Assembly: GCA_027923505.1 (NCBI GenBank)
Contig: BROI01000019.1
Location: 682,001 to 720,860, forward strand
Reading direction: 5' to 3'
DNA length: 38,860 bases
Source of the DNA: Mayamaea pseudoterrestris
Lineage: Eukaryota
Shown: in pieces, positions 12,047-36,129 of the stretch
Layout of the letters: each line of letters starts with the position of its first letter
Position numbering within the stretch: position 1 is the first letter of the stretch
Made by a program: the position numbers and the translations under genes
The notes under the pieces: model-generated
The model's database searches: none
What the model was told of the DNA's origin: nothing
Seen by the model: only the letters and a program-made list of their open reading frames with translations

Positions 12047-12411
12047 ATGTCATGTAATAACATATTCTACTGGGTCATTAAGCAATGGAATGTATGACGT
12101 AGTGGGCGCTCAACTACTTTCTTACGATAGATCATAATTTTGAAAGGCGAATCAGAGGCCTTCTGTGTTGCTCCCCACGACGTAGACTACAGCACGCCCG
12201 CTTTTGAACGTATATAAAGGCCTTAAAGACATTTATATATAATCTCAATTTATTCAAATAGTGTAATGACGGGCCTGGAGCCTGCCCGAAGACTGTTTCC
12301 CACTAGACGAAGCATCGATTGTCCCTTTCCGCGATGCCTCCTTCCATCTTGCACGAGAGTGTACCAGTTCTTTTCATGAGCCGTTTCACTGCTCATATTA
12401 TTATCCCCCAT

Positions 12412-13444: not shown

Positions 13445-15371
13445 ATGAGTAGGATGAAGCGTTTCTCCTCGACGGCATCGAATATCATAGTCGTCTCCTG
13501 CTGGTGCTCATTCATGTTGATGAGGACCATGACAGTCCAGGCATTTGCGCCTCTCGCGAATCCTGTTATCATTTCAGGATCCAAGCTAGTTAATCAAAAT
13601 ACGCCATATCAGAAACCGGCTGCGTATACGACAAGGTCACTGCATCAACTATCCATGAGCAGTAGCATTCAAAAGACTATTCAATCCTTTGCCGACAAGC
13701 TACCGTCCACCAAGGTCGTTCAATCTGTTGAGCAACTCCAAAGGAACAGTCAGTCCATCATTGCCAGCGATGTTGCAGCATCCGCCGGAGTGTCTCTTTC
13801 ACAAGCCCGCCGTGACTTGACGACGCTGGCGGCCATTTCGCAGGGCGACATTTCTGTCAGTCGCGACGGCGAGTTGCTCTACAACTTTCCAACCAATCTG
13901 CAAGCGTCATTGGCAAGCAAGTCGGCGCAATACAAGACGCGCGAACTGTTCGAAAAAGCATGGCCTACCTTGTTTTGGGGAGTTCGTGTCACTTTTGGAG
14001 TGGCGCTGCTGGCGAGTGTTGTCGCCATTTTTTCGACAATATTCTTCATTTCCACGGCAAGTAGTAATAGTGATAACGATGACCGACGTCGAGGCAATCG
14101 AAATAGTTTTGGTGGTGGTGGTGGTGGTTTTGGATTCAGCTACTGGTTTGGGCCGTCGCCGTTTGATGTATTCTACTATCGCCCGTACGGATCCTATGGA
14201 GCTTATGGACGTCGATCCATAGAAGATGATGGCGAAATGGGTTTCTTGGAATCGATTTTTAGCTACATCTTTGGAGACGGAGATCCAAATCAACGATTGG
14301 AGGAGCGGCGACTTCAGCTGGCCTCGCAGATGATTCGTCAAAATCAAGGAGCTGTGACCGCGGAGCAGTTGGCGCCGTTTTGCGACGACTTGCCGGATCT
14401 AACGAGGCAGCTGGAAGCGACATTTGTTGATGAGGTGAGTTTTTTTGATTATTGATCGATCGCTGATAGCTTTACTATACAGAAAGCACTGACGGTGCTT
14501 CTTGTTGTTTCTGCACTAGAGCTTTGTCTTGCCGATTGTCACAGCGCTAAACGGAGAACCGCAGGTTACCGAAGAGGGAGAGATTGTATACGTGTTTCCA
14601 GATCTGCAAGTCTCGACAGGTGTGTCTGCACCACAGCCAGTACGGTCATCGGAAGCTTCCGTGTTGAAGCGAGCCGGCATTTCACCTCGAGCAACCAATC
14701 GTGATATCCAGCGACTGCTAGAATACAACGGAATATCCTCCCGCGGAGTCATTGAGCGAGCCGAGCTCATTGCCTTGCTAGAAAAAGCCTTGCCACCGCC
14801 GTCGCCGCGGGAGCGGGCTGCCATGATGGACGACGACCCAGCCGTCTTGCAGGAACAGGAGCTGGAGTTTAGTTTGGCGCCCGACATTAACAAGTTTCTG
14901 GCCGGCGGACTCGGTGTGCTGAATCTTGGAGGTGCATTGTACCTTGGTAACCTGTTTTCGCAAGCCGCGTTATACTCGGTGAAGTTGCCTGGCATTTACG
15001 GAGCTGTCCAAGCTTTTTACCCGGCACTATTGGCCTATGCGGTATTGTTTAACATTATCCCGCTGGTTCGAAACCTTTACATTAAACGAGAAAATGCCAA
15101 GATTCAACTACGCAACCAGCGTCGCAAGCAGTGGAAGGATGCTCTCCAACTTGCCATTGGCAATACGCGCAGTCGGATTGGAAGCAAGATTCAGGCGGCG
15201 CGACGATTTGGACTCAAGGTCAAGCGGCTGGGCAGCAGTCCTAGCGATGTTATTTTCGATACTCGACAGGAGATTGACGTGATTGAAAAGCAGCGCGAAT
15301 CGGATGCCTTGAAGCAGTTCGATCAGCAACTCCGCAAGGCTGAGCAGGAGCAAGACAATTCGTTCCAGTAA
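13445..15371 (+). CDS. At5g03900-like conserved plastid membrane protein; exons 13445-14434 and 14520-15371
   Basis: Signal peptide + VQA-FAP; SDVAASAGVSLSQARRDLTTLA..GDISVSRDGELLYNFP, RVTFGVALLAS, FLESIFSYIFGDGDPN..LEERR..IRQNQGAVTAEQLAPF; splicing gives DE|SFVLPIV..NGEPQVTEEGEIVYVFPDLQ. Confidence 0.85.
14435..14519 (+). other. Spliceosomal intron (85 nt)
   Basis: GTGAGT donor, CACTGAC branch-like site, CACTAG acceptor; restores frame. Confidence 0.88.
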
Positions 15372-17894: not shown

Positions 17895-18536
17895 ATGGAG
17901 GCTGCAACAAGGTTGCCATTCCCGGCGTGGAGCTCCTTCTGCCACCATGGCTACGAGTCAGCGCGCTCAGATGGAACTGATCCCTACAAAGAAGCGACGA
18001 ACGAAGTTGTTCGCTATGTATACCTTCATGGAAGTGATGCTACTTTTGGGGACGTCGTAAAAAGTACGGGTCAATTTTTGGTGACACTATGCGCCGCAAG
18101 ATTATTGCCACTGGACTGAAATGGATCAAGGCGTCGTACGGGAAAGCGGACGAACTTGATTTAGTTTGTGATCGTTTGTATGCCATGACCTTCCTCATCT
18201 CTCTCATTGAATCAAACAAAATACGGGTACGAGAAACAACAGCCAGGGCATATCAATAGGTCAACACTGACGAGTCACCGAAACATTTTCTTGTACTACT
18301 TGGAACGTGCCCCTTGTGATTGTTTCTATCTATTAATGGATTTGACGCGTTCTGTGCAAGAAGTGGAGATGTGCGTTAGAGAAGGCTGCAAAGTTACTTT
18401 GACTGTCACAAGCATGCTGGAATGCACCAAGTGCCGCGTAGCGTCATACTGCTCTGTAGCCTGCCAAGCAAAAGATTGGGCGGAACACAAAACTCATTGC
18501 AAAAATCTGCAAAAGATGCAGCACCTGCATACATAA
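17895..18536 (+). pseudogene. MYND zinc-finger protein gene broken by about two frameshifts (pseudogene or sequencing error)
   Basis: Frame 1 MEAATR..FCHHG.., a middle frame RKIIATGLKWIKASYG..FLISLIE, and a last frame RNIFLYYLERAPCDCF...CVREGC..CTKCRVASYCSVACQAKDWAEHKTHC (MYND). No clear GT-AG intron explains the shifts near 18095 and 18215. Confidence 0.7.
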
Positions 18537-18559
18537 AATTAAAGGGAAGTAACTATAAT

Positions 18560-19165
18560 GTTGTAGTTATGCAAGCAGAATAGATTGGTGCGAGCTTCTT
18601 GCCAGCAGTCTCAGACAGCTGATGCCATGATTTCTAGGAATCAGCATACAGTATGCCTGAATCAAACAAGAACGTGCCAACATTCTAATTTAGGCTTCTC
18701 TACAAGATGTCATGATTGTCCGGTGCATTCAATGCAGCAATGCCATGGGTGAAACTTCACACCAGTCCCAGCAAATGACAACGGCAACTTTCAGCAGCCC
18801 ATTCTCAAAGCCATCCCCATGACCAATAGACACCAGAACGGTGCCAACATTGTTTTTCTGTCTGCGCTACAAGATGGTATGCCTGGTTGGTGTCTCAATA
18901 GACTGCAATGTGATTGGTGAAAAGTTGTCGCCAGTCTCAGCCAGCAGATGTTGTGACATGCAAATGCCCATACATCAAGCCATGTAGACACCCAAATTAC
19001 ACAAGAATGGTGCCAACATCATTATTGAGGTTGCGCTACAATATGTTATGACTAACTGGTGGTTCAGTAGACTGCAATGTGATTAGTGACAAGTTGTCAC
19101 CAGTCTCAACCTGCAGATGCCTTGACATTGAATTGCCCATATAACATGCCATGTATACATCCAAG
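18560..19165. repeat. Satellite family C: about 3.5 diverged copies of a ~168-bp monomer
   Basis: CTACAA(G/T)ATG recurs at 18700, 18867 and 19036. GAA(C/T)(G)GTGCCAACAT and GATT(G/A)GTG...CAGTCTCA recur at the same period. Confidence 0.8.
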
Positions 19166-21525
19166 CCATGGACCTTGTCAAGCACCTTCTGTGGATTGCA
19201 GTAGCAGGTTAAGATTCTTGGTGGCCAGGTTGCATCACTTTACATATCCCATCTGAATCTATGACGTGGTGAAATTACTTGGAGGAACCTACTTGCTATA
19301 TTCATGCATAACCACTGGCTGACTGGCTTCCAAATTGGAACATCTCAACCTTTGACTTTGTCAAACATCTTATCCTGATTGCCACGGCATGCTCAGAATC
19401 GTGCTAGCAAGGCTGGATCATTACATACTCCCAACTGAAACTTTGCTGTGTTTGGCACATGGAACACCCTACTTGTTTCAGTCTCAGTCACACCACAGCC
19501 ACTGCCAGAGCACCTGCTGATTTCAAAGTTCCAAGCCTTGGACCTTGTCAAGCACCTTCTGCGGATTGCAGTAGCAGGTTCAGATTCTTGGTGGCCAGGT
19601 TGCATCACTATACAAATCTTATCTGAAACTTTGATGTGGTAGAACCACTTGGAGGAATCTACTTGCTAAATTCACGCATAACCACTGGCTGACTGGCTTC
19701 CAAATTGGAACATTGCAACCTTTGACTTTTTCATACATCTTATCCTGATTGCCATGGCATGCTCAGAATCATGCTAGCAAGGTTGGATCATTACATAAAT
19801 CCCAACTGAAACTTTGCTGTGTTTGGCGAATGGAACACCCGACTTGTTTCAGTCTCAGTCACACCACAGCCACTGGCAGAATTGCTGCCATTTTCAAGTT
19901 CCAAGCCTTGGACCTTGCCAAGCACCTTCTGTGGATTGCAGTAGCAGGTTCAGAGTCTTGGTGGCCAGGTTGCATCACTACGCAAATCCCATCCGAATCT
20001 ATGATGTGGTGGAACCACTTGGAGGACCCTACTTGTTATATTCACGCATAACCATTGGCTGACTGGCTTCTTAATTAAAACATCTCAACCTTTGACTTTG
20101 TCAAACATCTTATCCTGATTGCCATGGCATGCTCAGAATCATGCTAGCAAGGTTGGATCATTACATAAATCCCAACTGAAACTTTGCTGAGTTTGGCACA
20201 TGGAACACCCTACTTGTTTCAGTCTCAGTCACACCACAGCCACTGCCAGAACTGCTGCTGTTTTCAAAGTTTAAAGCCTTGGACCTTGTCAAGCACCTTC
20301 TATGGATTGCAGTAGCAGGTTCAGATTCTTTGTGGCCAGGTTGCATCACTATGCAAATCCAATCTGAATCTTTGACGTGGTGAAATTACTTGGTGGAACC
20401 ATTTTTCTATATTCACGCATAACCACTGGCTGACTAGCTTCCAAATTGGAACATTTGTCAAACATCTTATCCTGATTGCCATGGCATGCTCAGAGTCATG
20501 CTAGCAAGGTTGGATCATCACATAAATCCCAACTGAAACTTTGCTGTGTTTGGCACATTGAACACTTTTTTTGTTTCAGTCTCAGTCTCAGTCACACCAC
20601 AGCCACTGCCAGAATAGCTGCTGTTATCAAAGTTCCAAGCCTTGGACCTTGTCAAGCACCTTCTGCGGATTGCAGTAGCAGGTTCAGATTCTTGGTGGCC
20701 AGGTTGCATCACTATACAAATCCCATCTGAAACATTGATGTGGCGGAACCACTTGGAGGACCATACTTGCTATATTCACGCAATACCACTGGCAGACTAG
20801 CATCCAAATTGAAACATCGCAACCTTTGACTTTGTCAAACATCTTATCCTGATTGCCATGGCATGCTCAGAATCATGCTAGCAAGGTTGGATCATTACAT
20901 ATATCCCAACTGAAACTTTGCTGTGTTTGGCAAATGGAACACCCTACTTGTTCTAGTCTCAGTCACACCACAGCCACTGCCAGAACAGCTGCTGTTTTCA
21001 AAGTTCCAAGCCTTGGACCTTGTCAAGCACCTTCTGTGGATTGCAGTAGCAGGTTCAGATTCTTGTTGGCCAGGGTGCATCACTATACAAGTCCCATCTG
21101 AAACATTGATGTGGTGGAGTTACTTGGAGGACCCTACTTGCTATATTCATGCATAACCCCTGGCTGACTAGCTTCCAAATTGGAACATCTCAACCTTTTA
21201 CTTTGTCAAACATCTTATTTTAATTGCCATGCCATGCTCAGAATCATGCTAGCAAGGTTGGATCATCACATAAATCCCAACTGAAACTTTGCTGTGTTTG
21301 GCACATAAAACACCCTACATGTTTCAGTCTCAGTCACACTACAGACACTGCCAGAGGAGCTGCAGTTTTTAAAGTTCCAAGCCCAAGCCTTGGACCTTGT
21401 CAAGCACCTTCTGCGGATTGCAGTAGCAGGTTCAGATTCTTGGTGGCCAGGGTGCATCACTATACAAATCCCATCTGAAACATTGATGTGGTGGAACCAC
21501 TTGGAGAAACCTTCTTGCTATATAT
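19161..21525. repeat. Satellite family A: about 6.4 copies of a ~370-bp unit (dimer of ~187+183-bp monomers)
   Basis: CCTGATTGCC anchor at 19374, 19744, 20114, 20471, 20848 and (variant) 21219; high copy-to-copy identity. Confidence 0.97.
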
Positions 21526-21528
21526 CAA

Positions 21529-23448
21529 GCAGACCCCATGTTACAATCAATATGGCCTTGAACAATGAATGGGACTCATAGACTTGTTCATTTGGGCGTG
21601 GAAGCCATCACTATGCCCTGAAACTCCACACAATTAACCAATGGTTGAATGTGCCAGCCCTGCTCCCATATGGATGCAGGGATCATCAGCATTGCCCGCT
21701 GAGCCCTCCAATTTCTTTCAAACATGTTTGTTATCAATGCTGGGCCATAAGTTGGTCAGTTGCACCTCAGCATCCATCACCATGTATGCCACGGTGAGAC
21801 TGGGCAGATGCAACAACTTGTTGGATCTGCTAGCGGTGCACCTCAAGTGGCAAGTGAGACTTCCAAAATGGCCTGCAGACCCCATAATGCAACTAATAGG
21901 GACTTGAACATTGATTGGGACTCATAGACTTGTCCATTTGGGCGTGGAAGCCATCACTATGCCCTGAAACTCCGCACATTCAACCAATGGTTGAATGTGC
22001 CAGCACTGCTCCCTTTTGGCTGCAGGGATCATCAGCATTGCCTGCTGAGCCCTCCAATTTCTTTCAAATCATGTCTGTTGTCAATGATGGGCCATAAGTT
22101 GGTCAGTTGCACCTCAGCATCCATCACCATGTACGCCACGGTGAGACAGAGCAGATTCAACAACTTGTTGGATCTTCTAGTGGTGCACCTGAAGTGGCAA
22201 GTGAGACTTTTAAAATAGCCTGCAGACCCCATAATTCACCCAATATGGACTTGAACAATGATTGGGACTCATAGACTTGTCCATTTGTGCGTGGAAGCCA
22301 TCACTATGCCCTGAGACTCCGCACATTCAACCAATGGTTGAATGTGCCAGCCCTGCTCCCATATGGATGCAGGGATCATCAGCATTGCCCGCTGAGCCCA
22401 CCAATTTTTTCAAATCATGTGTGTTGTGAATGCTGGGCCATAAGTTGGTCAGTTGCACCTCAGCATCCATCACCATGTACGCCACGGTGAGACTGGGCCG
22501 ATCCATCAACTTGTTGGATATGCTAGCGGTGCACCTCAAGTGGCAAGTGAGAATTCCAAAATGGCCTGCAGACCCCATAATGCAACCAATACGGACTTGA
22601 ACAATGAATGGGACTCCTAGACATGTCCATTTGGGTGTGGAAGCCATCACCATGCCCTGAGACTCCGCACATTCAACCAATGGTTGAATGTGCCAGCCCT
22701 GCTCCCTTTTTGGCTGCACGGATCATCAGCATTGCCCGCTGAGCCCTCCAATTTCTTTCAAATTATGTGTGTTGTGAATGCTGGGCCATAAGTTGGTCAG
22801 TTGCACCTCAGCATCCATCACCATGTATGCCACGGTGAGACTGGGCATATCCAACAACTTGTTGGATCTGCTAGCGGTGCACCTCAAGTGGCAAGTGAGA
22901 CTTCCAAAATGGCCTGCAGACCCCATAATACAACTAATAGGGACTTGAACAATGAATGGGACTCATAAACTTGTCCATTTGGGTGTGTAAGCCATCACCT
23001 TGCCCTGAGACTCCGCACATTCAACCAATGTTTGAATGTGCCAGCCCTGCTCCCTTTTTGGCTGCAGGGATCATCAGCATTGCCCACTGAGCCCTCCAAT
23101 TTCTTTCAAATCATGTTTGTTGTCAATGGTGGGCCATAAGTTGGTAAGTTGTACCTCAGCATCCATCACCATCTATGCCATGGTGAGACTGAGCAGATCC
23201 AACAACTTGTTGGATCTGCTAGCGGTGCACCTCAAGTGGCAAGTGAGACTTCCAAAATGGTCTGCAGACCCCATAATTCAATCAATATGGACTTGAACAA
23301 TGAAATTGACTAATAGACTTGTCCATTTGGGTGTGGAAGCCATCGCCATGCCCAGAGACTGCGCACAGCATTGCCCGCTGAGCCCTCTAATTTCTTTCTA
23401 ATCATGTTTGTTGTCAATAATGGGCCATAAGTTGGTCATTCGCACCTA
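21529..23448. repeat. Satellite family B: about 5.5 copies of a ~347-bp unit (dimer of ~177+170-bp monomers, each with a 27-bp palindrome)
   Basis: GCAGACCCC anchor at 21529, 21875, 22222, 22568, 22916 and 23264. Confidence 0.97.
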
Positions 23449-23449
23449 A

Positions 23450-23810
23450 CCTGATTGCCATGGCATGCGCAGAATCATGCTAGCAAGGTTGAATCATTAC
23501 ATAAATCCCAACTGCAACTTTGTGGTGTTTGGCTCATGGAACACTTTACCTGTTTCAGTCTCAGTCACACCACAGCCACTGCCAGAATAGATGCTGTTTT
23601 CAATATTCCAAGCCTTGGACCTTGTCAAGCACCTTCTGCGGATTGCAGTAGCAGGTTCAGATTCTTGCTGGCCAGGTTGCATCACTATACAAATCCCATC
23701 TGAAACTTTGACCTGATGGAACCACTTGGAGGACCCTGCTTGCTATATTCGTGCATAACCACTGGCTGACTGGCTTCCAATTTGGAAAATCTCAACCTTT
23801 AACTTTGTCA
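23450..23810. repeat. Single further copy of satellite A
   Basis: CCTGATTGCCATGGCATGC...ACTTTGTCAA, one full A unit in the same orientation. Confidence 0.95.
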
Positions 23811-23815
23811 ATAAT

Positions 23816-23940
23816 TCCAAAATCATTATCCAGTCTGCCTTACAAGATGGTATGCCTGGTTGGTGTCTCAGTAGACTGCAATGTGATTGGTGACAACTTG
23901 TCACCAGTCTAAGTCTGCAGATGCTGTGACATGCAAATGG
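23816..23940. repeat. Partial copy of satellite C closing the block
   Basis: TACAAGATGGTATGCCTGGTTGGTGTCTCAGTAGACTGCAATGTGATTGGTGA...GTGACATGCAAATG is nearly identical to 18868-18967. Confidence 0.9.
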
Positions 23941-24642
23941 TATTATCTTGGTACACTGGATACTGTGTTAGTTTCTAATAGAAATCACTTTCAGCACTGT
24001 CTATTAAACAACGGCTCTTGGCTGTCAGTGACTGTAAAGATTGTGGATTTGCAATTCTCAGCCGGAGACTTGCCATTTCATCTGAATCCCTGCTAATCCA
24101 AATGCAGGGCTTGCATAGTTGGGGCTTGTAAACTGATTCTTTATTGATTGTACTTAATTCTTTGGATGGGAATAATGGGATATAGTATTCCCACTACATG
24201 CTTCTCTGCAAAGAAAATGTTTTCGCAAGCGCGACTGAAATGTGATTTGACTACCAATACCGGTGCGTCTCTTTCGTTTCGCGACGGATGCTTTTCTTTT
24301 CTCACCATTGTTTGTTGCGTGCAATACAACGACGGTATTATCCTTCGGATCCGCTTTTCTGGCTGCAAATAAAAGAATCGATCTCTAGCAAAGACAGTGA
24401 CAGAGCAAAGTCTTTTGTTTGCACATTTTTTCTTTTTGTTGGCGCGAATTACAAGTACGTTGGCAAATGCACGTTCTGCGCCGAGCTGAGAATCTGGTGA
24501 AGCGAGAGCGACTATCAAACAATGATAGTCCGATTGTTTGTCGCCAGCATCGCCAGCGATGATTGCAATGCATGTTTACAAACGTTTGCTCTATTGGTGT
24601 TTTCGCTCTTTCATGCACCTGATACTAGGGATACAACAACTG

Positions 24643-27200: not shown

Positions 27201-27227
27201 GCCATGGTGCCATGGTGCCATGGTGCC
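27201..27227. repeat. Short tandem repeat (GCCATGGT)x3
   Basis: gccatggt gccatggt gccatggt gcc, seen directly. Confidence 0.9.
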
Positions 27228-27249: not shown

Positions 27250-27581
27250 GGCACTACTACGAAACGAGTGCCAGTGTCAATTACGTCACAAGGCATTAGT
27301 ACGAAACGAGTGCCAGTGTCAATTACGTCACAAGGCATTAGTACGAAACGAGTGCCAGTGTCAATTACGTCACAAGGCATTAGTACGAAACGAGTGACAG
27401 TGTCAATTACGTCACAAGGCATTAGTAGAAACGAGTGCCAGTGTCAATTACGTCACAAGGCACTAGTACGAAACGAGTGCCAGTGTCAATTACGTCACAA
27501 GGCAATAATATGAAACGAGTGCCAGTGAAAACTACGTCATAAGGCAATACTACGAAACGAGTGCCAGTGAAAACTACGTCA
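27250..27581. repeat. 42-bp minisatellite, 8 copies, in a divergent intergenic region
   Basis: Unit TACGAAACGAGTGCCAGTGTCAATTACGTCACAAGGCATTAG starts at 27258, 27300, 27342, 27384, 27426 (1-nt deletion), 27467, 27509 and 27551. Confidence 0.97.
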
Positions 27582-27683: not shown

Positions 27684-28865
27684 ATGGCATCGACTGGCGC
27701 TCCAACAGCAGCGACCTCGTCTCTTCAGACACTGCAACGCCTCGAAGAGACGCTCAAGTCTCTTCCCGACAAGGAATCTGCTCCCAAGCTCTCCCACTAT
27801 CGAGCCATTCCGTCGTCGCTCCAAAATGCATTCGACCTGCTCCAACAGGCAGCATCAAGCATTCACGCTAACAGCACCAAGTTTGCCTTAATGGGCAAGA
27901 TTGATGTTTCTCAAGCTACTGAAATGGCCCGCGATACCTTACTACCAGGATGTCAATGGATATGTACGGGAGCACTGGTGGTGCACCAGGATTCGACGGG
28001 CTGCACCAAGTCGTTGCGGCATGCCATCAAGCGAGCGACGCGAGCAGTACTGCAATCCACGATTCAACTTGTTCAATGCTTTACTGGAGATGCAGCGGCA
28101 TTCACGGAGAATGAACAATTGGCGGCCCAACGAACAGGAGCGGTATGGGAAGCTTGTCAAACAATTTTGAACATGCAAAATGGCCAATCTTCGTCTTTGC
28201 CAATCTCGAATCAATTAGCCATGCGGCGCGAATTCTCCATATACATCAAAGAATGCAATGAAACAATGCAAGAGTTCCAGGAAATGATCGATGCTGGACC
28301 GAGCTTGGACGAGGGTAAGGAGCACGAGAACGGTGATGGCGAAGCAGACGAGATTGACGAAGGCGAGGAACCATCATGGGAACAGTTTCTTGGAGGTGGA
28401 ACTGACCAATACACTCTGCAGGAAACCCCTATCGCAACTTCTGCTTTGGCTCTAGTTAAATGCTCCCGCGGCTGCATCAATGTAGCAATGCAAGCGTGCG
28501 ACGACGTTGGTAAGAGTTTGACAGAGGATGCCACAGGTAACGGCAACGAACTCTCGAATGTAGACGAGGCTCGATTGCAATGGATATTGCGGTTGTTCAA
28601 CTGCGCTCAAGCTGTCGGTGAGGGCATGACGGATTTGGGAGCAGCCATGTATCCGCCAATTAAGAGGCAAGAGCTGGAATGCCAAATTCTGAGACAGTGC
28701 GCTGCGATGGAGGAGTTGCTGGCTTGCCTCTTTGATAGAACTTTGCCAGAGTACGAATCTTTTGATTTGGGACGGAATGTGAGTAATCTAGCGACGAAGC
28801 TTCAGTTGGCGGTGGGTAGACGGAAAGATGAAGCTCTGGAGGCTGTTGCACTGGGTACAGATTAA
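27684..28865 (+). CDS. GCIP / cyclin-D1-binding protein 1-like protein
   Basis: 393-aa helical protein with IHANSTKFAL, AAQRTGAVWEAC, ECNETMQEFQEM + acidic stretch, and GMTDLGAAMYPP, all typical of the GCIP family. Confidence 0.75.
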   Translation: MASTGAPTAATSSLQTLQRLEETLKSLPDKESAPKLSHYRAIPSSLQNAFDLLQQAASSIHANSTKFALMGKIDVSQATEMARDTLLPGCQWICTGALVVHQDSTGCTKSLRHAIKRATRAVLQSTIQLVQCFTGDAAAFTENEQLAAQRTGAVWEACQTILNMQNGQSSSLPISNQLAMRREFSIYIKECNETMQEFQEMIDAGPSLDEGKEHENGDGEADEIDEGEEPSWEQFLGGGTDQYTLQETPIATSALALVKCSRGCINVAMQACDDVGKSLTEDATGNGNELSNVDEARLQWILRLFNCAQAVGEGMTDLGAAMYPPIKRQELECQILRQCAAMEELLACLFDRTLPEYESFDLGRNVSNLATKLQLAVGRRKDEALEAVALGTD

Positions 28866-28930: not shown

Positions 28931-31900
28931 CTACTGCGAAAATTGCTCGACCAACAAAGTCGCCGCTATTGGTGCCCACCATATTTCTTCCACGCCCTCT
29001 TCTGCGTCGTCATGGGCGATGCGAGCGCAAACCGACAACGAAAAGCGACCCGTCTCGGTAAAGACTGCGCGAGCAGCATGTTTCATAGCCACTTCGTTCA
29101 TTCGAAAGCTCTGTTGCAATTTACCAACCCATACTATTCCGTCGAAACGCTTCGAGGCCTGTGAATTGTGTGTTTCACTGTGACGGAAACAGAAAAATTC
29201 CAACACGAGGTGACAACTTTTAGCCCCCTCGGATGGTACCCAATTGGCAATGGTCACTTGTGAATGAAGGTCAAGAGGGCTCCCAAGCGCGATCAACGTG
29301 GGAGAGCTTGAAGCGTTGCAACCACCAACGTTCAAAGTTATATCGCAAGGTGCCTGGCATATGCGCTGAACGAACGACGGGTTTTCGTGAATTATTTCCT
29401 GAAGCGCTTCTCGTGGAATAAGAAGTCGACCAGTAGCATCCTCAACAGAATCATCAGGATGGCCAGTCGACCAAGTTATGTTAGACCTTGAGATAATCTC
29501 GTTGGCTATATCAACAGGAGTGCCGTCGTCCTTCATGCGAGCGAGGCGAGGAAAAACAACTGGAAGCTTGGCACTCACCCCAGAGTGAACGAGTAGCGTC
29601 TCAATCGGATGATTGTGAAAGCCACCGACTGGACCATTGCTGCGCGAGAGCATGACTTCCGATTTAGTTTCATTCGCCACCGTTAGCAAGAAAATGACAT
29701 CGCCACTTGCGACATGCATGCCACGGTCCAGCCCAACACGGAATATGGTCTCAACTTGAGACATACCGTGCGTTGCTGATTTTATTCGCACATCCGGATT
29801 TTGTCCCACTTGTGTCCGTCGGCGTGCCTTAAACGATTGGCACATTTCCTCGTATGCACTAGCGGTTAATATATCGGGACGAAAATCCATTGACGAAAGC
29901 CTCGGCCCGCAAATACAAGCAACATGATATGTGATGTCAAGACGACGCCAAACTTCAGACCCCTCTGTAGCCATGCCCCGATAGCGAAACCGAAGCCGAA
30001 ATGTGGTGCCATCGGGCAATAATCTATTTAAATTGTTGGCTGCGGCGATTTGAAACGTAATAACATTTCCGCTTAAATTGATGCTCTCGATGGAGATTGC
30101 AGTTGGTAAAAATTTGAGGCGGAGAGGTACAGAACTTTCCTCTTCAGCTTGTTGCTTGAAAAAGGCGTCGTCAGGTTGGTGCCAATTTCCTTCTGTGTCA
30201 AATAGTAACGTCTCAGGCACACCAGGAAGGTCGATAGCGAGAATCTGCAACCGCTTAATTTGTCCACGTAAGGTTGGCCCGGAAAAGTTACGGAGTTCCA
30301 AAGGTGGAAGCGTAAACGTCTCCCCTTCCGCGAGGCTAATTGAAAAGGTGGCTATGGACTCGACCGGAGCGCCTGACTTCTGAAACATAATCTGAAGGCG
30401 CGGCTGAGTCGCACAAGTCTCGAAGCATGGCTTCGCCAGCTCGGCATCGCTCGCCATAGGCTTCGCCGGTAGTTCAAATGGATATACTGACATTGGACTA
30501 GGCGTTTCACAAGTACTTTGTACTTTACTTCTCAAGTTGGACAGTGACGAAAAGACAGGTATAAAATAGACCCTTCCCAAAAAGGTCATTTCAATACCAG
30601 TTACTTCAAAGACAACAACTTCAGCGCTTCGTGAATCGTCTGCAAGAACCGAGAAAGGGAATTGAACGGCGAAGCCTTTCACCTTGGGTGGCATGACGAA
30701 GGACAACGCCGACGCCTTTACTCGACCATCTATATCTCCCCTAAAAACCAATTTGCAACGCTGCACTTCCAGAGGGACAGAAAGGCGGTTTCCAAACTGA
30801 ATTACCATAAAGCGTTCTTCCTCCTCGGCGACAATCACCGGCTTGACTTCCACCTTTGTCTTGTCAAAAGTTTGTAAAACTGCTCTGCGCCCTTGTCCTC
30901 TTGTGCTATAATCTTAGTATTAACACGCTCCAAAGCCAAGTCTCTTCGTTTAAGACCGTCATTCAGATACCGTGTATACGGTGCGTTTCATCCGCATTTT
31001 TAACTCTATAACTCACGGTGGAGGATGTTGGAAGTGAACGACGAAGCATGGCGATTCTCTGCATGCATCCTTCTTGTGCAACTGAGCATCGGCTTTGGTC
31101 TGCCTTTAACCACACGCAGCCAAGGTCCCTTACTGCCCGCGCCGTTTTGGAGGTAGCGGAAAAAGGTACATCAACAGGTGAAATTATTGGCCCGTCCGCC
31201 CGCCCAGTTCCCAGCGTGATTGTCGATTGAGAGTGTAATCGAGGCGAAACTCGCCTTGAGCTGCCGCGCAAGGTGTTAACAGACTACATTTCGGTCTGTT
31301 TCACCTCGCTCTCATCAAAACTTTGACTTTGATTTCTTGGGTCGCCAGTCTCTCGCGATCGAGACCTTACTCTGTCGCTTCGGGCGACTAAACTCCGTCG
31401 GCGGGCCGGAGATTGCTGTCGTCGGGAAGCCTTCGCCGCTGCAGGCTCAATTTCACTAGAAGTACCAGCAAATCTTGGGCAGCAAAGTTTGTTGCCTGTT
31501 GTTTCCCTTGCGTGGCTAAGCGTCCCGGAACAGCTGGGGGCAGCCCGGCCCATTTCCCTCCCCGGTGAAGTGTTTCTTCTTTCGCATATAGTCGATCGCG
31601 GTAACCAAGGTCTCTGGCGCTGCCGTCGCATTGCGCTGTTCTTACGATGTGCTCTCGGCAGCAACAACGCAAAAAAGCCGCTTTTCGAGGCAAGCAAACT
31701 GGTTCGGCCAATCTACCTTTCCATTGGGTAGCCTTTACACCATCTCAACAAAGGCGAGCCATCTGGCGGCAACATCGGCCCGGGTCGTTGGGTTCAAGCC
31801 TCCGACCGAGACAGCCTCTTGAAGTAATTCGCATACCTGGTCTATTAAAGGTGTTAATGTGAATCATGTCACCACTTCCGCCTTTCGTTTTTTGGTTCAG

Positions 31901-34514: not shown

Positions 34515-36129
34515 ATGACGGCGAAAGGTGCGCCGAGTCAAACGCATCAAAGGTGCGCAAAGGTCCCCAAGATTCTCGAGTCAGGGAGGAGCTGAGGCTC
34601 AAAAAGAGACGGATGTGATCTGCGGTCGAGGCTCTGGAGTAACTTGTTGGAAAGGCAACATTGAATTCAGGTACGTTTCCAATCTAAACGACAAACGACG
34701 TGTCAGTAGTCGTTGATCACCATGGACTAAACATTTTGCTCCCTTGTGTATAGGTACCTTTGCTACAAGGTCAAGCCACTCTACGTCATGGCCGATCGCA
34801 CCGCCAAGACGGCCATCGCCCTTGATCTCATCAAGGAGATGGCCACATTGGATCCACCAGGTCGGTTCGTCGAACTTATTGAAGGAACCGAGATTGACGA
34901 CAAGCGTTGCCTTCTCGTTCCGCAGGAGCAAGCCATTGAGAAGACCTGCCAAGCTCTTCGCGAAAAGAAGAATGGGTGCCCTCGTCTCTTCCGGCCGTTC
35001 GAAAGCGCCAAGAAGTCAAGGGATGGCGACATCAATTTTGAGGCTCCCAAGTTTTCAAAAGCACACATCACGAACTTACGCAAGTCGCTCGAGCAAAAGT
35101 TCATCACAACGTCTCGAGGCAAGCGCACGAAGAATTTAGACGAGGACTCGGTTGATGCGAGCGAGGACGATGACGAAGTGGCAAAGCCGGAGATCATTGC
35201 TTCCAGCACCCGCAAGATTGCGGAAACTGTCAATCGATCCAGACGCTTGACTGCTCGCCAGGCAGTCATCGAGTCGATCATGGAGTCCAAGCAACCGCCA
35301 ACGAAAAGGAAGGAACCCGAGGCGGAACAGCTTTCGAAGATGACTCCCCAAACGACTAAGAAGCCCAAATTCCAGCTTCGCGGGCCGCCCACGGAAGAAA
35401 TGCCGATAGCTCCACTGAGCAGCATCTACATGCCCAATCTTGGATCTGTCGCTCCGATCAACCTCATTGAAACGTTCAAGCCCATCGAACGCCGCAGCGA
35501 TCCTACACCGATGGCGGCACCACAGCCACAACTGCCATCAACCAAGTCTATAGTTACTAATGCCTTGGACTTCCAGACGAAGCCCATCTCGGCATCGCAA
35601 CTCGACAAGGAAATGGCACTGTTTCCTCCGACCATGACGGCCTTTTGCAGTGGTATTTTCAACGAGATGATGTCGTCCAACGTGGCGCTCGATGTGCCGC
35701 CCCCTCCGCCGCATTTCCTTCGACGCCGCGCGGCCCGGCATGTTGCCGCTGTCGCCTCCACAAAGTCTTTTGGACGATGATGACGATGCAGCGCCCACTC
35801 TGGACCAGACGACGCTCAAAACGTACATTACGCAGGGAAGCAACAGCTCCAGCGATGAACCACCCAAGACATTCTTGGCCTCGTACTTGAGCGATTTCTT
35901 CGACAAGAAGTACTTCCCAGTCAATTCAACGAGCAAGTACTTTAGCGGTAATGACTGCAAGGTGGCGCCACTCCAGACTGATCTCCAGGCTCAAACCAGT
36001 CAGTCGCCTACAACAGTCTTTTGCGACCTCTTCCGCCAGGATTCCATCGTATGCTACAACAATGCTTTATTTGATGACGGTTTGGAGGATGACATTGTTG
36101 CTCCGATTGAGGCGTTTCCGGATCTTTAA
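34515..36129 (+). CDS. DUF6824-domain protein (family expanded in diatoms); intron 34671-34753; apparent frameshifts near 34530-34600 and ~35720
   Basis: Spliced DVICGRGSGVTCWKGNIEFR|YLCYKVKPLY...KTAIALDLIKEM..LDPPGRFVE...AIEKTCQALRE, followed by a long low-complexity tail. Confidence 0.75.
34671..34753 (+). other. Spliceosomal intron (83 nt) in the DUF6824 gene
   Basis: GTACGT donor, ACTAA branch-like site, TATAG acceptor; phase-2 join recreates an Arg codon in frame. Confidence 0.85.

What the first reader, a model, noticed from the sequence alone, without database searches (positions are those of the whole stretch)
21628..23220. Two alternating 27-bp palindromes in satellite B differ only by compensatory base-pair swaps
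Seen: P1 GCACATTCAACCA-A-TGGTTGAATGTGC is perfect at 21974, 22321 and 22667 and imperfect at 21628 and 23015. P2 GCAGATCCAACAA-C-TTGTTGGATCTGC is perfect at 23193 (29 bp from 23192) and slightly imperfect at 21804, 22151, 22497 and 22845. They alternate at 176-178 and 170 bp spacing. P1 and P2 match at 20 of 27 positions. The six arm differences form three compensatory pairs (C-G to G-C, T-A to C-G, C-G to A-T), and the seventh is the unpaired centre. Both are usually preceded by CCATCAC..ATG..TGAGACT and followed by YAGC. Inference: dyad symmetry rather than primary sequence was preserved while the monomers diverged. That implies a functional cruciform or hairpin, a dimeric-protein site once per nucleosome length, a structured repeat RNA, or arm-to-arm template-switch correction.
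Basis: partly seen in the sequence, partly recalled or inferred. Interest (0 to 1): 0.85.

Follow-up and report, generated by a model that had tools for sequence, protein, structure and literature searches.

The report
Alternating palindromes in a diatom satellite
A very abundant tandem repeat of a diatom carries one perfect 27-base palindrome per nucleosome-length unit, and its two unit types keep the mirror symmetry while differing in sequence, which most likely reflects one palindrome arm being copied onto the other during replication rather than a proven function.

Summary
Satellite B (21529-23447) is a 347/348-bp dimer of two homologous ~174-bp half-units. Each half-unit carries a 13-1-13 palindrome at the same site. 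P1 and P2 differ at 7 of 27 positions: three complementary pairs plus the centre. Independent substitution cannot explain this (P about 1e-5 to 5e-5).

New context:
- The window is from a diatom; the closest named homologues are from Mayamaea pseudoterrestris.
- Public read sets hold thousands of contig pieces of the repeat, at 1e3 to 1e4 times the single-copy depth. This locus is therefore a small island of a major satellite lying between genes.
- Within the island the palindromes decay as fast as their flanks (11/270 vs 67/1465 cells), and none of the 11 changes is compensated.
- Primary sequence is no better kept than the flanks (20/27 vs 62%).
- No conserved RNA fold extends beyond the hairpin, and there is no Rfam match.

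Best reading (0.45): arm-to-arm template switching kept the symmetry in the lineage that was later amplified, with no detectable constraint on individual copies now. Selection for a cruciform or hairpin remains open (0.27). This is a new member of a known kind, dyad-bearing satellites. Interest is moderate.

The parts
18628..19134 (.). Three C-type 169-bp units on the left edge of the repeat block. Each has a decayed or partial copy of the C-type palindrome, for example the 7-1-7 copy GTGACAAGTTGTCAC around 19093.
19156..21531 (.). Satellite A: 371-bp units, 6.4 copies, each a dimer of A1/A2 half-units of about 185 bp. It has no strong dyad at the site that a weak collinear alignment places opposite P1/P2. 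It has its own 10-1-10 near-palindrome at the unit start.
21529..23447 (.). Satellite B: 347/348-bp units, about 5.3 copies, each a dimer of homologous half-units B1 (with P1) and B2 (with P2).
21628..21654 (.). P1 copy with three uncompensated left-arm changes (edge unit).
21804..21830 (.). P2 copy with one uncompensated change (position 7, C>G).
21974..22000 (.). P1, perfect 13-1-13 palindrome. Single-strand DNA hairpin -12.1 kcal/mol, z -5.8.
22151..22177 (.). P2 copy with two uncompensated changes.
22321..22347 (.). P1, perfect.
22497..22523 (.). P2 copy with three uncompensated changes.
22667..22693 (.). P1, perfect.
22845..22871 (.). P2 copy with one uncompensated change (position 4, G>T).
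23015..23041 (.). P1 copy with one mismatch (T at 23031). The read sets carry G here in about 97% of summed depth, which restores the perfect palindrome.
23192..23220 (.). P2, perfect, arms extended to 14 nt. Hairpin -12.3 kcal/mol, z -7.5, for the 27-mer.
23264..23447 (.). Truncated last B unit. An internal deletion of about 57 bp begins inside the left arm of its P1 and removes the palindrome.
   Evidence: (family D6), read directly from the sequence
23447..23770 (.). Satellite A resumes (partial unit). The block is nested as C[A[B]A]C.
23770..23938 (.). C-type unit on the right edge. Its palindrome at 23884-23910 has the perfect 9-1-9 core TGGTGACAACTTGTCACCA, with 11 of 13 pairs overall, and shares the 9-nt centre ACAACTTGT with P2.

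Best explanation
The block at 18.6-23.95 kb is a small island of a very abundant diatom satellite superfamily with nucleosome-length units, lying between genes. Satellite B is a two-unit higher-order repeat. Its halves B1 and B2 descend from one ancestral unit that already carried a short-spacer palindrome.

While the halves diverged by about 38%, the two arms of each palindrome were repeatedly made complementary again. The likely route is replication-associated template switching within the hairpin, that is, quasi-palindrome correction. A change in one arm is either erased or copied as its complement into the other arm, several bases at a time. This gives exactly the pattern seen: symmetry kept, primary sequence drifting at about the neutral rate, and pair changes that need no wobble intermediate.

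The dimer carrying two perfect palindromes was then amplified to thousands of copies. Since amplification, individual copies, including those in this window, have decayed neutrally.

Shown here: the anatomy, the homology of the halves, the non-random complementarity, the abundance, and the neutral recent decay. Inferred: the template-switch mechanism and the order of events. No cellular function is required by the data, and none is excluded.
For: 1. B1 and B2 are homologous and the palindromes sit at the same site.
2. Three of 13 pairs changed on both sides, 0 changed on one side only, between the P1 and P2 consensus. P is 2e-6 to 5e-5 under independent change. Without correction, both palindromes staying intact has P about 5e-6.
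3. The pair-level difference (3/13 = 23%) is not lower than the flank site difference (38%; P = 0.22). That fits neutral drift with arm copying, not strong conservation.
4. Two of the three pair swaps (C-G to G-C, C-G to A-T) have no G-T/G-U wobble intermediate. This fits simultaneous copying better than stepwise compensation.
5. Recent changes occur at the flank rate and 0 of 11 are compensated. So there is no detectable constraint on individual copies.
6. Both palindromes are strong single-strand DNA hairpins (-12.1 and -12.3 kcal/mol, 0 of 200 shuffles as good). That is the substrate template switching needs.
7. Template switching is documented to make and maintain perfect stems with multibase compensatory changes (PMC8794818, abstract and introduction read). 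It is also reported to homogenise and expand inverted-repeat arms (PMC8604942 and PMC13100816, abstract openings in the search listing only).
8. A third unit type (C) has its own palindrome sharing only the 9-nt centre with P2. MAFFT places a 7-nt gap in its left arm, while its right arm, aligned without gaps, matches P2 at about 1 of 9 outer positions by my own count on that alignment. Contigs in two read sets join the C-type left flank to the P2 left arm (tables 5 and 5c). This looks like wholesale rebuilding of one arm on the other. It is suggestive only.
Against: - Only two (at most three) independent lineages carry the signal. No ancestral reconstruction was possible, so no template-switch event was actually seen.
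- 0 of 11 recent mismatches were converted. The 95% upper bound is 24% converted, so arm copying is not fast on the time scale of this array.
- Persistence of perfect palindromes in the founders of the three most abundant unit types, set against the lack of a dyad at the corresponding site in the less abundant A type, could equally reflect selection or amplification bias in favour of palindromes.
- The depth figures are summed contig depths, not calibrated copy numbers. In addition, 74 rows of variant letters were not shown.
Confidence: 0.45

Rival explanations
1. The palindrome is a selected DNA structure. The hairpin or cruciform extruded once per nucleosome-length unit is what the cell uses, for example to mark centromeric or heterochromatic chromatin as in the non-B-DNA model of centromere specification. 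Selection on pairing then fixed the compensatory changes, possibly supplied by template switching.
For: - Symmetry was kept through about 38% flank divergence.
- The hairpins are strong.
- There is one palindrome per 170-178 bp.
- The family is extremely abundant.
- The three abundant unit types (C, B1, B2) have a palindrome, while the less abundant A type lacks one at the weakly aligned site.
- Dyad symmetries are enriched in centromeric satellites of many eukaryotes and were proposed to be recognised as cruciforms (PMC5889037, abstract and passages read).
Against: - There is no sign of constraint in the copies seen here: 11/270 vs 67/1465 deviating cells, and 0 of 11 compensated.
- Primary-sequence and pair-level divergence are not below the flanks.
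- No evidence on chromosomal location, CenH3 or structure in vivo could be obtained.
- The two diatoms whose centromeres I read about have short low-GC centromeres without typical satellite arrays (preprint 10.1101/2021.11.10.468027, passages read). This block is 44-49% GC.
Confidence: 0.27
2. The palindrome is a selfish amplification driver. Hairpin-induced fork stalling or breakage promotes unequal exchange or break-induced copying, so units with perfect palindromes out-amplify others. Symmetry then reflects which variants expanded, not a service to the cell.
For: - In the single read-laying run, abundance ranks with palindrome presence: C about 3.1 million, B about 0.8 million and A about 0.1-0.2 million summed depth, against 103 in single-copy DNA in run X1.
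- One B unit in the window has a deletion that starts inside P1 (23264-23447). That fits palindrome fragility.
Against: The ranking rests on three unit types and on uncalibrated depths. There is only one deletion anecdote. Neither the A/B nor the B/A junction of the block lies at a palindrome.
Confidence: 0.1
3. P1 and P2 are binding sites for dimeric sequence-specific proteins, spaced once per nucleosome.
For: They are perfect dyads with a 1-nt centre and conserved flanks. Inverted repeats are typical sites for dimeric factors (general knowledge).
Against: A homodimer selects each half-site separately. Positions that do not matter should then vary independently, yet all differences are symmetric. 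Keeping both P1 and P2 would need two proteins with different half-site preferences, and a third for the C type, whose half-site shares only a few inner bases with them. There is no copy-level constraint.
Confidence: 0.1
4. The hairpin acts in a repeat-derived RNA, as a structured satellite transcript or a small-RNA precursor, and compensatory evolution reflects RNA pairing.
For: The stem shows double changes.
Against: - The consensus fold of the 10 half-units finds the palindrome hairpin plus only one 3-pair helix with no compensated change, so no larger conserved structure.
- There is no Rfam match at gathering score in the window. Only one E = 0.9 match appears in 18500-24000.
- Two of three swaps cannot pass through G-U.
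- A perfect palindrome folds equally on both strands, which points to DNA-level symmetry.
Confidence: 0.05
5. The palindromes are junctions of tandemly inserted miniature transposons, with a right-end inverted repeat abutting a left-end inverted repeat.
For: Head-to-tail copies of an element with terminal inverted repeats would create a palindrome at each junction (inference).
Against: In an alternating B1-B2 array, such junctions would be hybrids of the two elements' ends. Instead each palindrome is internally perfect, P1/P1 and P2/P2. Each unit would then need different ends, which is not a transposable unit. No transposase or Rep/helicase domain was found among the 11 large ORFs scanned.
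Confidence: 0.02

Closest known systems
Dyad-symmetry-bearing (often centromeric) satellite DNAs, as surveyed by Kasinathan and Henikoff 2018 (PMC5889037; abstract and passages read)
   Same: [quoted passage not shown]
   Different: That survey concerns dyads of under 10 bp and centromeres located by CENP-A data. Here the arms are 13 bp and perfect, the organism is a diatom, and no centromere link could be tested. The alternation of two palindromes that differ only by complementary swaps is not described in the passages I read.
Quasi-palindrome template-switch mutation and the maintenance of stems by it (Monttinen and Loytynoja 2022, PMC8794818; abstract and introduction read)
   Same: Multibase complementary changes keep a perfect stem, and arms become homogenised and extended.
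   Different: Those cases are RNA genes, and coding or promoter inverted repeats. Here the substrate is a non-coding satellite unit later amplified thousands of times.
Higher-order repeat organisation of satellites (alpha-satellite dimers and similar; general knowledge, recalled)
   Same: Two diverged units (62% identical flanks) are homogenised together as one 347/348-bp repeat. Newer unit types lie in the middle of the block and older ones at its edges (C[A[B]A]C).
   Different: The array here is small, about 5.3 kb, and lies between genes.
Short satellite-like arrays next to genes in euchromatin, as for TCAST in Tribolium castaneum (PMC3411249; search listing and abstract opening only)
   Same: Copies of a genome's major satellite lie as short arrays between genes.
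   Different: A different organism and an unrelated sequence. No effect on the neighbouring genes was examined here.
Self-cleaving-ribozyme satellites (hammerhead-bearing repeats of newts, schistosomes and cave crickets; recalled)
   Same: Tandem repeats with a conserved stem-loop.
   Different: No ribozyme family matches. No conserved structure extends beyond the simple hairpin.

Membership tests
Satellite DNA (high-copy tandem repeat) | Head-to-tail arrays of a repeat unit | tested here: met
   TRF finds period 348, 5.3 copies, 91% matches. Neighbouring arrays have periods 371 and 169. Contigs in runs X1 and X2 loop back by 340-346 bp, showing the same tandem dimer elsewhere (table 5).
Satellite DNA (high-copy tandem repeat) | High copy number across the genome | tested here: met
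   9505 (X1) and 2980 (X2) contig pieces were laid on 1.65 kb. Summed depth at the P1/P2 bins is about 0.78-0.81 million against 103 in the single-copy flank in X1, and about 71-81 thousand against 28-33 in X2. These depths are not calibrated copy numbers.
Higher-order (dimeric) repeat | The unit is made of two homologous but diverged sub-units that are homogenised together | tested here: met
   B1 vs B2 gives Smith-Waterman score 60 against a null of 19 +/- 2.8. Flank identity is 86/138. Copies of the whole dimer are 91% alike.
Dyad-bearing centromeric satellites (non-B-DNA model) | Dyad symmetry or hairpin potential above composition-matched shuffles | tested here: met
   P1 z = -5.8 and P2 z = -7.5, with 0 of 200 shuffles as stable. 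92.3% of cells are paired against 24-36% when partners are slid.
Dyad-bearing centromeric satellites (non-B-DNA model) | Location at centromeres or association with CenH3 | not testable with these tools
   No whole genome is held. No ChIP data are available. This copy lies between a MYND-finger ORF and a COQ9 gene.
Quasi-palindrome template-switch product | Inverted repeat with a short spacer able to fold back | tested here: met
   13-nt arms with a 1-nt centre and stable hairpins.
Quasi-palindrome template-switch product | Clustered changes that make one arm the exact reverse complement of the other in one event on a reconstructed lineage | tested here: inconclusive
   Three complementary double changes and no single ones separate P1 and P2. 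With two lineages and no outgroup, the number of events cannot be counted. The C-type arm replacement is only suggestive.
Structured RNA family or ribozyme satellite | Match to a curated RNA family, or a conserved multi-helix fold | tested here: not met
   0 matches at gathering score. One chance-level match at E = 0.9. RNAalifold finds the palindrome hairpin plus only one 3-pair helix without a compensated change.
Tandem transposon (TIR-TIR junction) array | Each unit is bounded by the same inverted repeat at both ends | tested here: not met
   With alternating perfect P1 and P2, each unit would carry half of P1 at one end and half of P2 at the other.

The most novel reading that the evidence does not exclude
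The palindromes are the functional element of a diatom's major satellite. On this reading, a cruciform or hairpin once per nucleosome specifies centromeric or heterochromatic chromatin, and selection acts on DNA shape rather than sequence. The compensatory swaps between P1, P2 and the C-type palindrome would then be sequence-level evidence for structural selection on a satellite, in a lineage where the few centromeres described so far are short, low-GC and lack typical satellite arrays.
Probability: 0.2. Interest if true: 0.75.

Novelty: new member of a known kind. Interest (0 to 1): 0.4.

Why it matters
Whether satellite DNA is shaped by selection on DNA structure or only by mutational and amplification biases is an old open question. 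This family offers a clean natural test. It has thousands of units and at least two, probably three, unit types. Each type has a different perfect palindrome, and hybrid units also exist.

A census of units from long reads could separate template-switch events from stepwise compensation. It could also measure whether unpaired variants are purged.

The family also appears undescribed. The genome paper of the closest named species lists 0 bp under 'Satellites' and 2.26 Mb as unclassified repeats (PMC9724779, supplementary table S3). Its main text contains none of the words satellite, tandem or centromere. For this window alone, the practical message is that the array is an ordinary decaying copy of that family, with no sign of local function.

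Tried and rejected
- **Whole-genome search.** No genome is held for this window.
- **Relatives in public collections.**
  - The 20-position pattern shared by P1 and P2 gave 0 hits in viral contigs.
  - It gave one hit in metagenome contigs, L001. That hit is a chance match inside what reads as unrelated, non-repetitive coding-like sequence.
  - A C-type pattern gave 0 viral hits.
  - A flank pattern gave one unrelated viral hit, L002.
  - No further unit sequences could therefore be collected, and the covariation test across many units could not be run.
- **RNA evidence.** No RNA holder is listed among the 7 runs. This says nothing about expression.
- **Cross-species presence.** Runs X4 and X6 (organisms C and E) hold B- and C-type pieces but have no depth on the single-copy flank.
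  - They come from the same study as X1 and the depths are low, so carry-over cannot be excluded.
  - Their C:B depth ratio (about 30) does differ from that of X1 (about 4).
  - I do not count this as conservation between species.
- **Depth peaks at the palindrome bins.** I considered these as evidence that the palindrome is the best-kept part of the unit. I rejected that because the low bins coincide with the end of the laid stretch and with private changes of the reference copy.
- **Homology of satellite A with B, and of C with B.**
  - A vs B is not significant under two scoring schemes. It is weakly significant under a third (z = 2.76, 2 of 200 shuffles as high).
  - B vs C gives z = 0.6-2.0.
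  - I treat both as tentative.
- **Coding potential.** The longest ORFs through the repeats (130, 100, 88 and 86 aa) have no Pfam match. The unit lengths of 346-348 bp also shift the frame.
- **Transposon-junction model.** Rejected on the arrangement of P1 and P2 (see the rival explanations).
- **Earlier findings of this scan.** Nothing was found by place, sequence or words.
- **Literature.**
  - A search for 'satellite DNA' + compensatory + palindrome + monomer returned 3 papers, none relevant judging by their titles and abstract openings.
  - A search combining 'diatom' with 'satellite DNA', 'tandem repeat' and 'centromere' (at least three of the four terms required) found no described diatom satellite among the 15 papers listed.
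  - These two searches are my only basis for saying the pattern is not in print.
- **Atlas look-up for taxonomy.** Uninformative.
Full report
**What the window is**

The large ORFs encode eukaryotic housekeeping proteins: BOP1, ATP-dependent DNA ligase, an SPX-MFS transporter, porphobilinogen deaminase, a JmjC protein, COQ9, a GCIP-like protein, a Brix protein and a DUF6824 protein. The genes are almost intron-free and GC is 44-54%. The closest named homologues of the DUF6824 protein (34746-35780) are two proteins of the pennate diatom Mayamaea pseudoterrestris. One is 100% identical over 86% of the query and the other 93% identical over 92%. No whole genome is held for the window.

**The repeat block**

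The block lies between a MYND-finger ORF that ends at 18536 and the COQ9 gene that starts at 24538. It is about 5.3 kb of tandem repeats and is nested as C[A[B]A]C:

| Element | Coordinates | Unit |
|---|---|---|
| C-type | 18628-19134 | 169 bp, three units |
| Satellite A | 19156-21531 | 371 bp, itself a dimer of A1/A2 (Smith-Waterman 122 vs null 20 +/- 3) |
| Satellite B | 21529-23447 | 347/348 bp |
| Satellite A again | 23447-23770 | partial unit |
| C-type | 23770-23938 | one unit |

**Checking the observation**

- P1 is perfect at 21974, 22321 and 22667. It has one mismatch at 23015 and three at 21628.
- P2 is perfect at 23193, with 14-nt arms from 23192. It has one to three changes at 21804, 22151, 22497 and 22845.
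- Spacing is 176-178 bp and 170 bp.
- The halves B1 and B2 are homologous (score 60 vs null 19 +/- 2.8), and the two palindromes occupy the same columns.
- P1 and P2 agree at 20 of 27 positions. The six arm differences are three complementary pairs and the seventh is the centre.

On the ten copies, 92.3% of pair cells are complementary, against 24-36% when the partner is slid by 1-3 columns. The probability that six changed arm positions fall into three pairs and are complementary is 4.6e-5. Under independent substitution the observed pattern (10 unchanged, 3 double, 0 single) has probability 2e-6 to 8e-6. Without any correction, two 13+13 palindromes surviving the flank divergence intact has probability about 5e-6. 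So the symmetry was actively kept. The caveat is that the signal comes from two lineages, not ten.

**What was kept and what was not**

Flank identity between B1 and B2 is 62% (86 of 138 aligned positions, on an optimised alignment). The palindrome is 74% identical, and the pair-level difference is 3 of 13. Neither differs significantly from the flanks (P = 0.14 and 0.22). Primary sequence therefore drifted at about the flank rate, and only the complementarity is special. Two of the three swaps (C-G to G-C and C-G to A-T) have no wobble intermediate.

**Recent history**

Within the window, palindrome positions depart from the unit consensus in 11 of 270 cells. Other positions depart in 67 of 1465 cells (Fisher P = 0.87). 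None of the 11 palindrome departures is matched by a change in the partner. If the edge unit is left out, the figures are 7/216 against 56/1172.

**The family is genome-wide**

I laid the Logan contigs of four coded runs on 22950-24600 at 80% likeness. The number of contig pieces laid was 9505 (X1), 2980 (X2), 178 (X4) and 312 (X6).

Summed word depth in run X1:

| Region | Depth |
|---|---|
| P1 bin | 775,099 |
| P2 bin | 812,918 |
| Satellite-A part | 123,000-225,000 |
| C-type palindrome bin | 3,147,232 |
| Single-copy flank | 103 |

X2, from another study, shows the same pattern: 80,743, 71,530 and 477,132, against 28-33 in the flank. The tool warns that these are not copy numbers. They do show a family repeated thousands of times.

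Contigs that loop back by 340-346 bp show the same B dimer in tandem elsewhere (table 5).

At 23031 the window has T, where 97% of the depth in X1 has G. G is also the great majority in X2, X4 and X6. That letter restores a perfect P1. Of the 40 variant rows shown, 10 lie in the B part and only this one lies in a palindrome. A further 74 rows were not shown.

X4 and X6 hold B- and C-type pieces but nothing on the single-copy flank. They share a study with X1 and the depths are low, so I do not treat this as proof of conservation between species.

**Other unit types**

The C type has its own palindrome at 23884-23910. It has a perfect 9-1-9 core, 11 of 13 pairs overall, and a hairpin of -8.4 kcal/mol (z = -3.8). 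It shares the 9-nt centre with P2.

MAFFT aligns its centre with that of P2 and places a 7-nt gap in the left arm. The right arm aligns without gaps but matches P2 at about 1 of 9 outer positions by my own count on that alignment. Contigs in X1 and X2 join the C-type left flank to the left arm of P2 (tables 5 and 5c). This looks like one arm being rebuilt on the other after a deletion. However, B-C homology is not statistically secure (z = 0.6-2.0).

Satellite A aligns collinearly with B only weakly (z = 2.76 in one of three scoring schemes). At the aligned sites it has no dyad (z about -0.1). It does have a separate 10-1-10 near-palindrome at the unit start.

**What it is not**
- There is no Rfam match at gathering score in the window. 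Only one chance-level match (E = 0.9) appears in 18500-24000.
- The consensus fold of the ten half-units contains the palindrome hairpin plus only one 3-pair helix with no compensated change.
- The longest ORFs through the repeats have no Pfam match.
- A tandem-transposon origin does not fit, because alternating perfect P1 and P2 would give each unit two different ends.
- A single homodimeric protein does not explain symmetric changes at positions that differ between coexisting P1, P2 and C.

**Mechanism**

The best-supported account is arm-to-arm copying by template switching in a fold-back, acting in the lineage that led to the amplified B dimer.
- It explains complementary multi-base changes without intermediates.
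- It explains drift at the neutral rate per pair.
- It explains the extension of the dyad by one pair in two P2 copies (23192 and 22150).
- It explains the apparent rebuilding of the C-type arm.
- The process is documented for stems in RNA genes (PMC8794818, abstract and introduction read). It is also documented for inverted repeats in yeast genes and promoters (abstract openings in the listing only).

After amplification the copies decayed neutrally.

I cannot exclude that perfect palindromes were favoured. They may be a DNA structure used by the cell, as in the non-B-DNA model of centromeres (PMC5889037). Or they may promote their own amplification. The rank order of abundance (C > B > A) parallels palindrome presence, but that rests on three points and uncalibrated depths.

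**Novelty**

Dyad-bearing satellites and template-switch maintenance of stems are both known, so this is a new member of a known kind.

The family itself seems undescribed. The genome paper of the closest named species reports 0 bp of satellites and 2.26 Mb of unclassified repeats (supplementary table S3). Its text has no occurrence of satellite, tandem or centromere.

Two literature searches found no report of compensatory palindrome evolution between satellite sub-units, and no described diatom satellite among the papers listed. Supplements of bioRxiv preprints were closed, and most subscription journals are not in the library, so older satellite papers may hold similar cases.

**Verdict**

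Interest is moderate (0.4). The value lies in the test this family makes possible once all its units can be read.

Noticed in passing
window 27250-27581 (and 27201-27227): A separate 42-bp tandem repeat, 7.9 copies and 94% matches, lies just upstream of the GCIP-like gene that starts at 27684. Each unit contains TTACGTCA and a 6-nt dyad (GGCACT...AGTGCC in the best copies). It is preceded by GCCATGGT x3.4. It may be a promoter-proximal array of factor sites.
   Followed up: partly
window 19526-19546, 19895-19917, 20630-20650, 21372-21398: Satellite A has its own near-palindrome at the start of each unit (AAGTTCCAAG, a C centre, then CTTGGACCTT; 9 of 10 pairs). Its arms resemble the TCCAA/TTGGA part of P2. 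Whether it is related to P1/P2 is open.
   Followed up: partly
window 21658-21681, 22351-22374 and the matching sites in other B1 halves: A second, weaker dyad lies directly after P1 (CCCTGC...GCAGGG). It comes in two loop variants (ATATGGAT and TTTTGGCT) that alternate between units. B2 has GGTGCACC at the corresponding place.
   Followed up: no
window 23264-23447: The last B unit has an internal deletion of about 57 bp that starts inside the left arm of P1 and ends at CAGCATTGCC. This is one example of a rearrangement beginning in the palindrome.
   Followed up: partly
tables 5 and 5c (runs X1, X2): Hybrid units exist elsewhere in the genome in which a C-type left flank runs into the P2 left arm. 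The unit types are therefore mosaics and not clean families.
   Followed up: no
window 34746-35780: The DUF6824 protein has two close named relatives on different contigs of Mayamaea pseudoterrestris, one 100% and one 93% identical. This suggests a recent duplicate or a diverged second haplotype.
   Followed up: no
window 12212-12238: An isolated AT-rich 13-1-13 quasi-palindrome with 2 mismatches lies in the spacer after the porphobilinogen deaminase gene. It is unrelated to the satellite palindromes.
   Followed up: no
window 13445-14455 and 28931-30853: Two long ORFs (336 and 640 aa) have no Pfam match.
   Followed up: no
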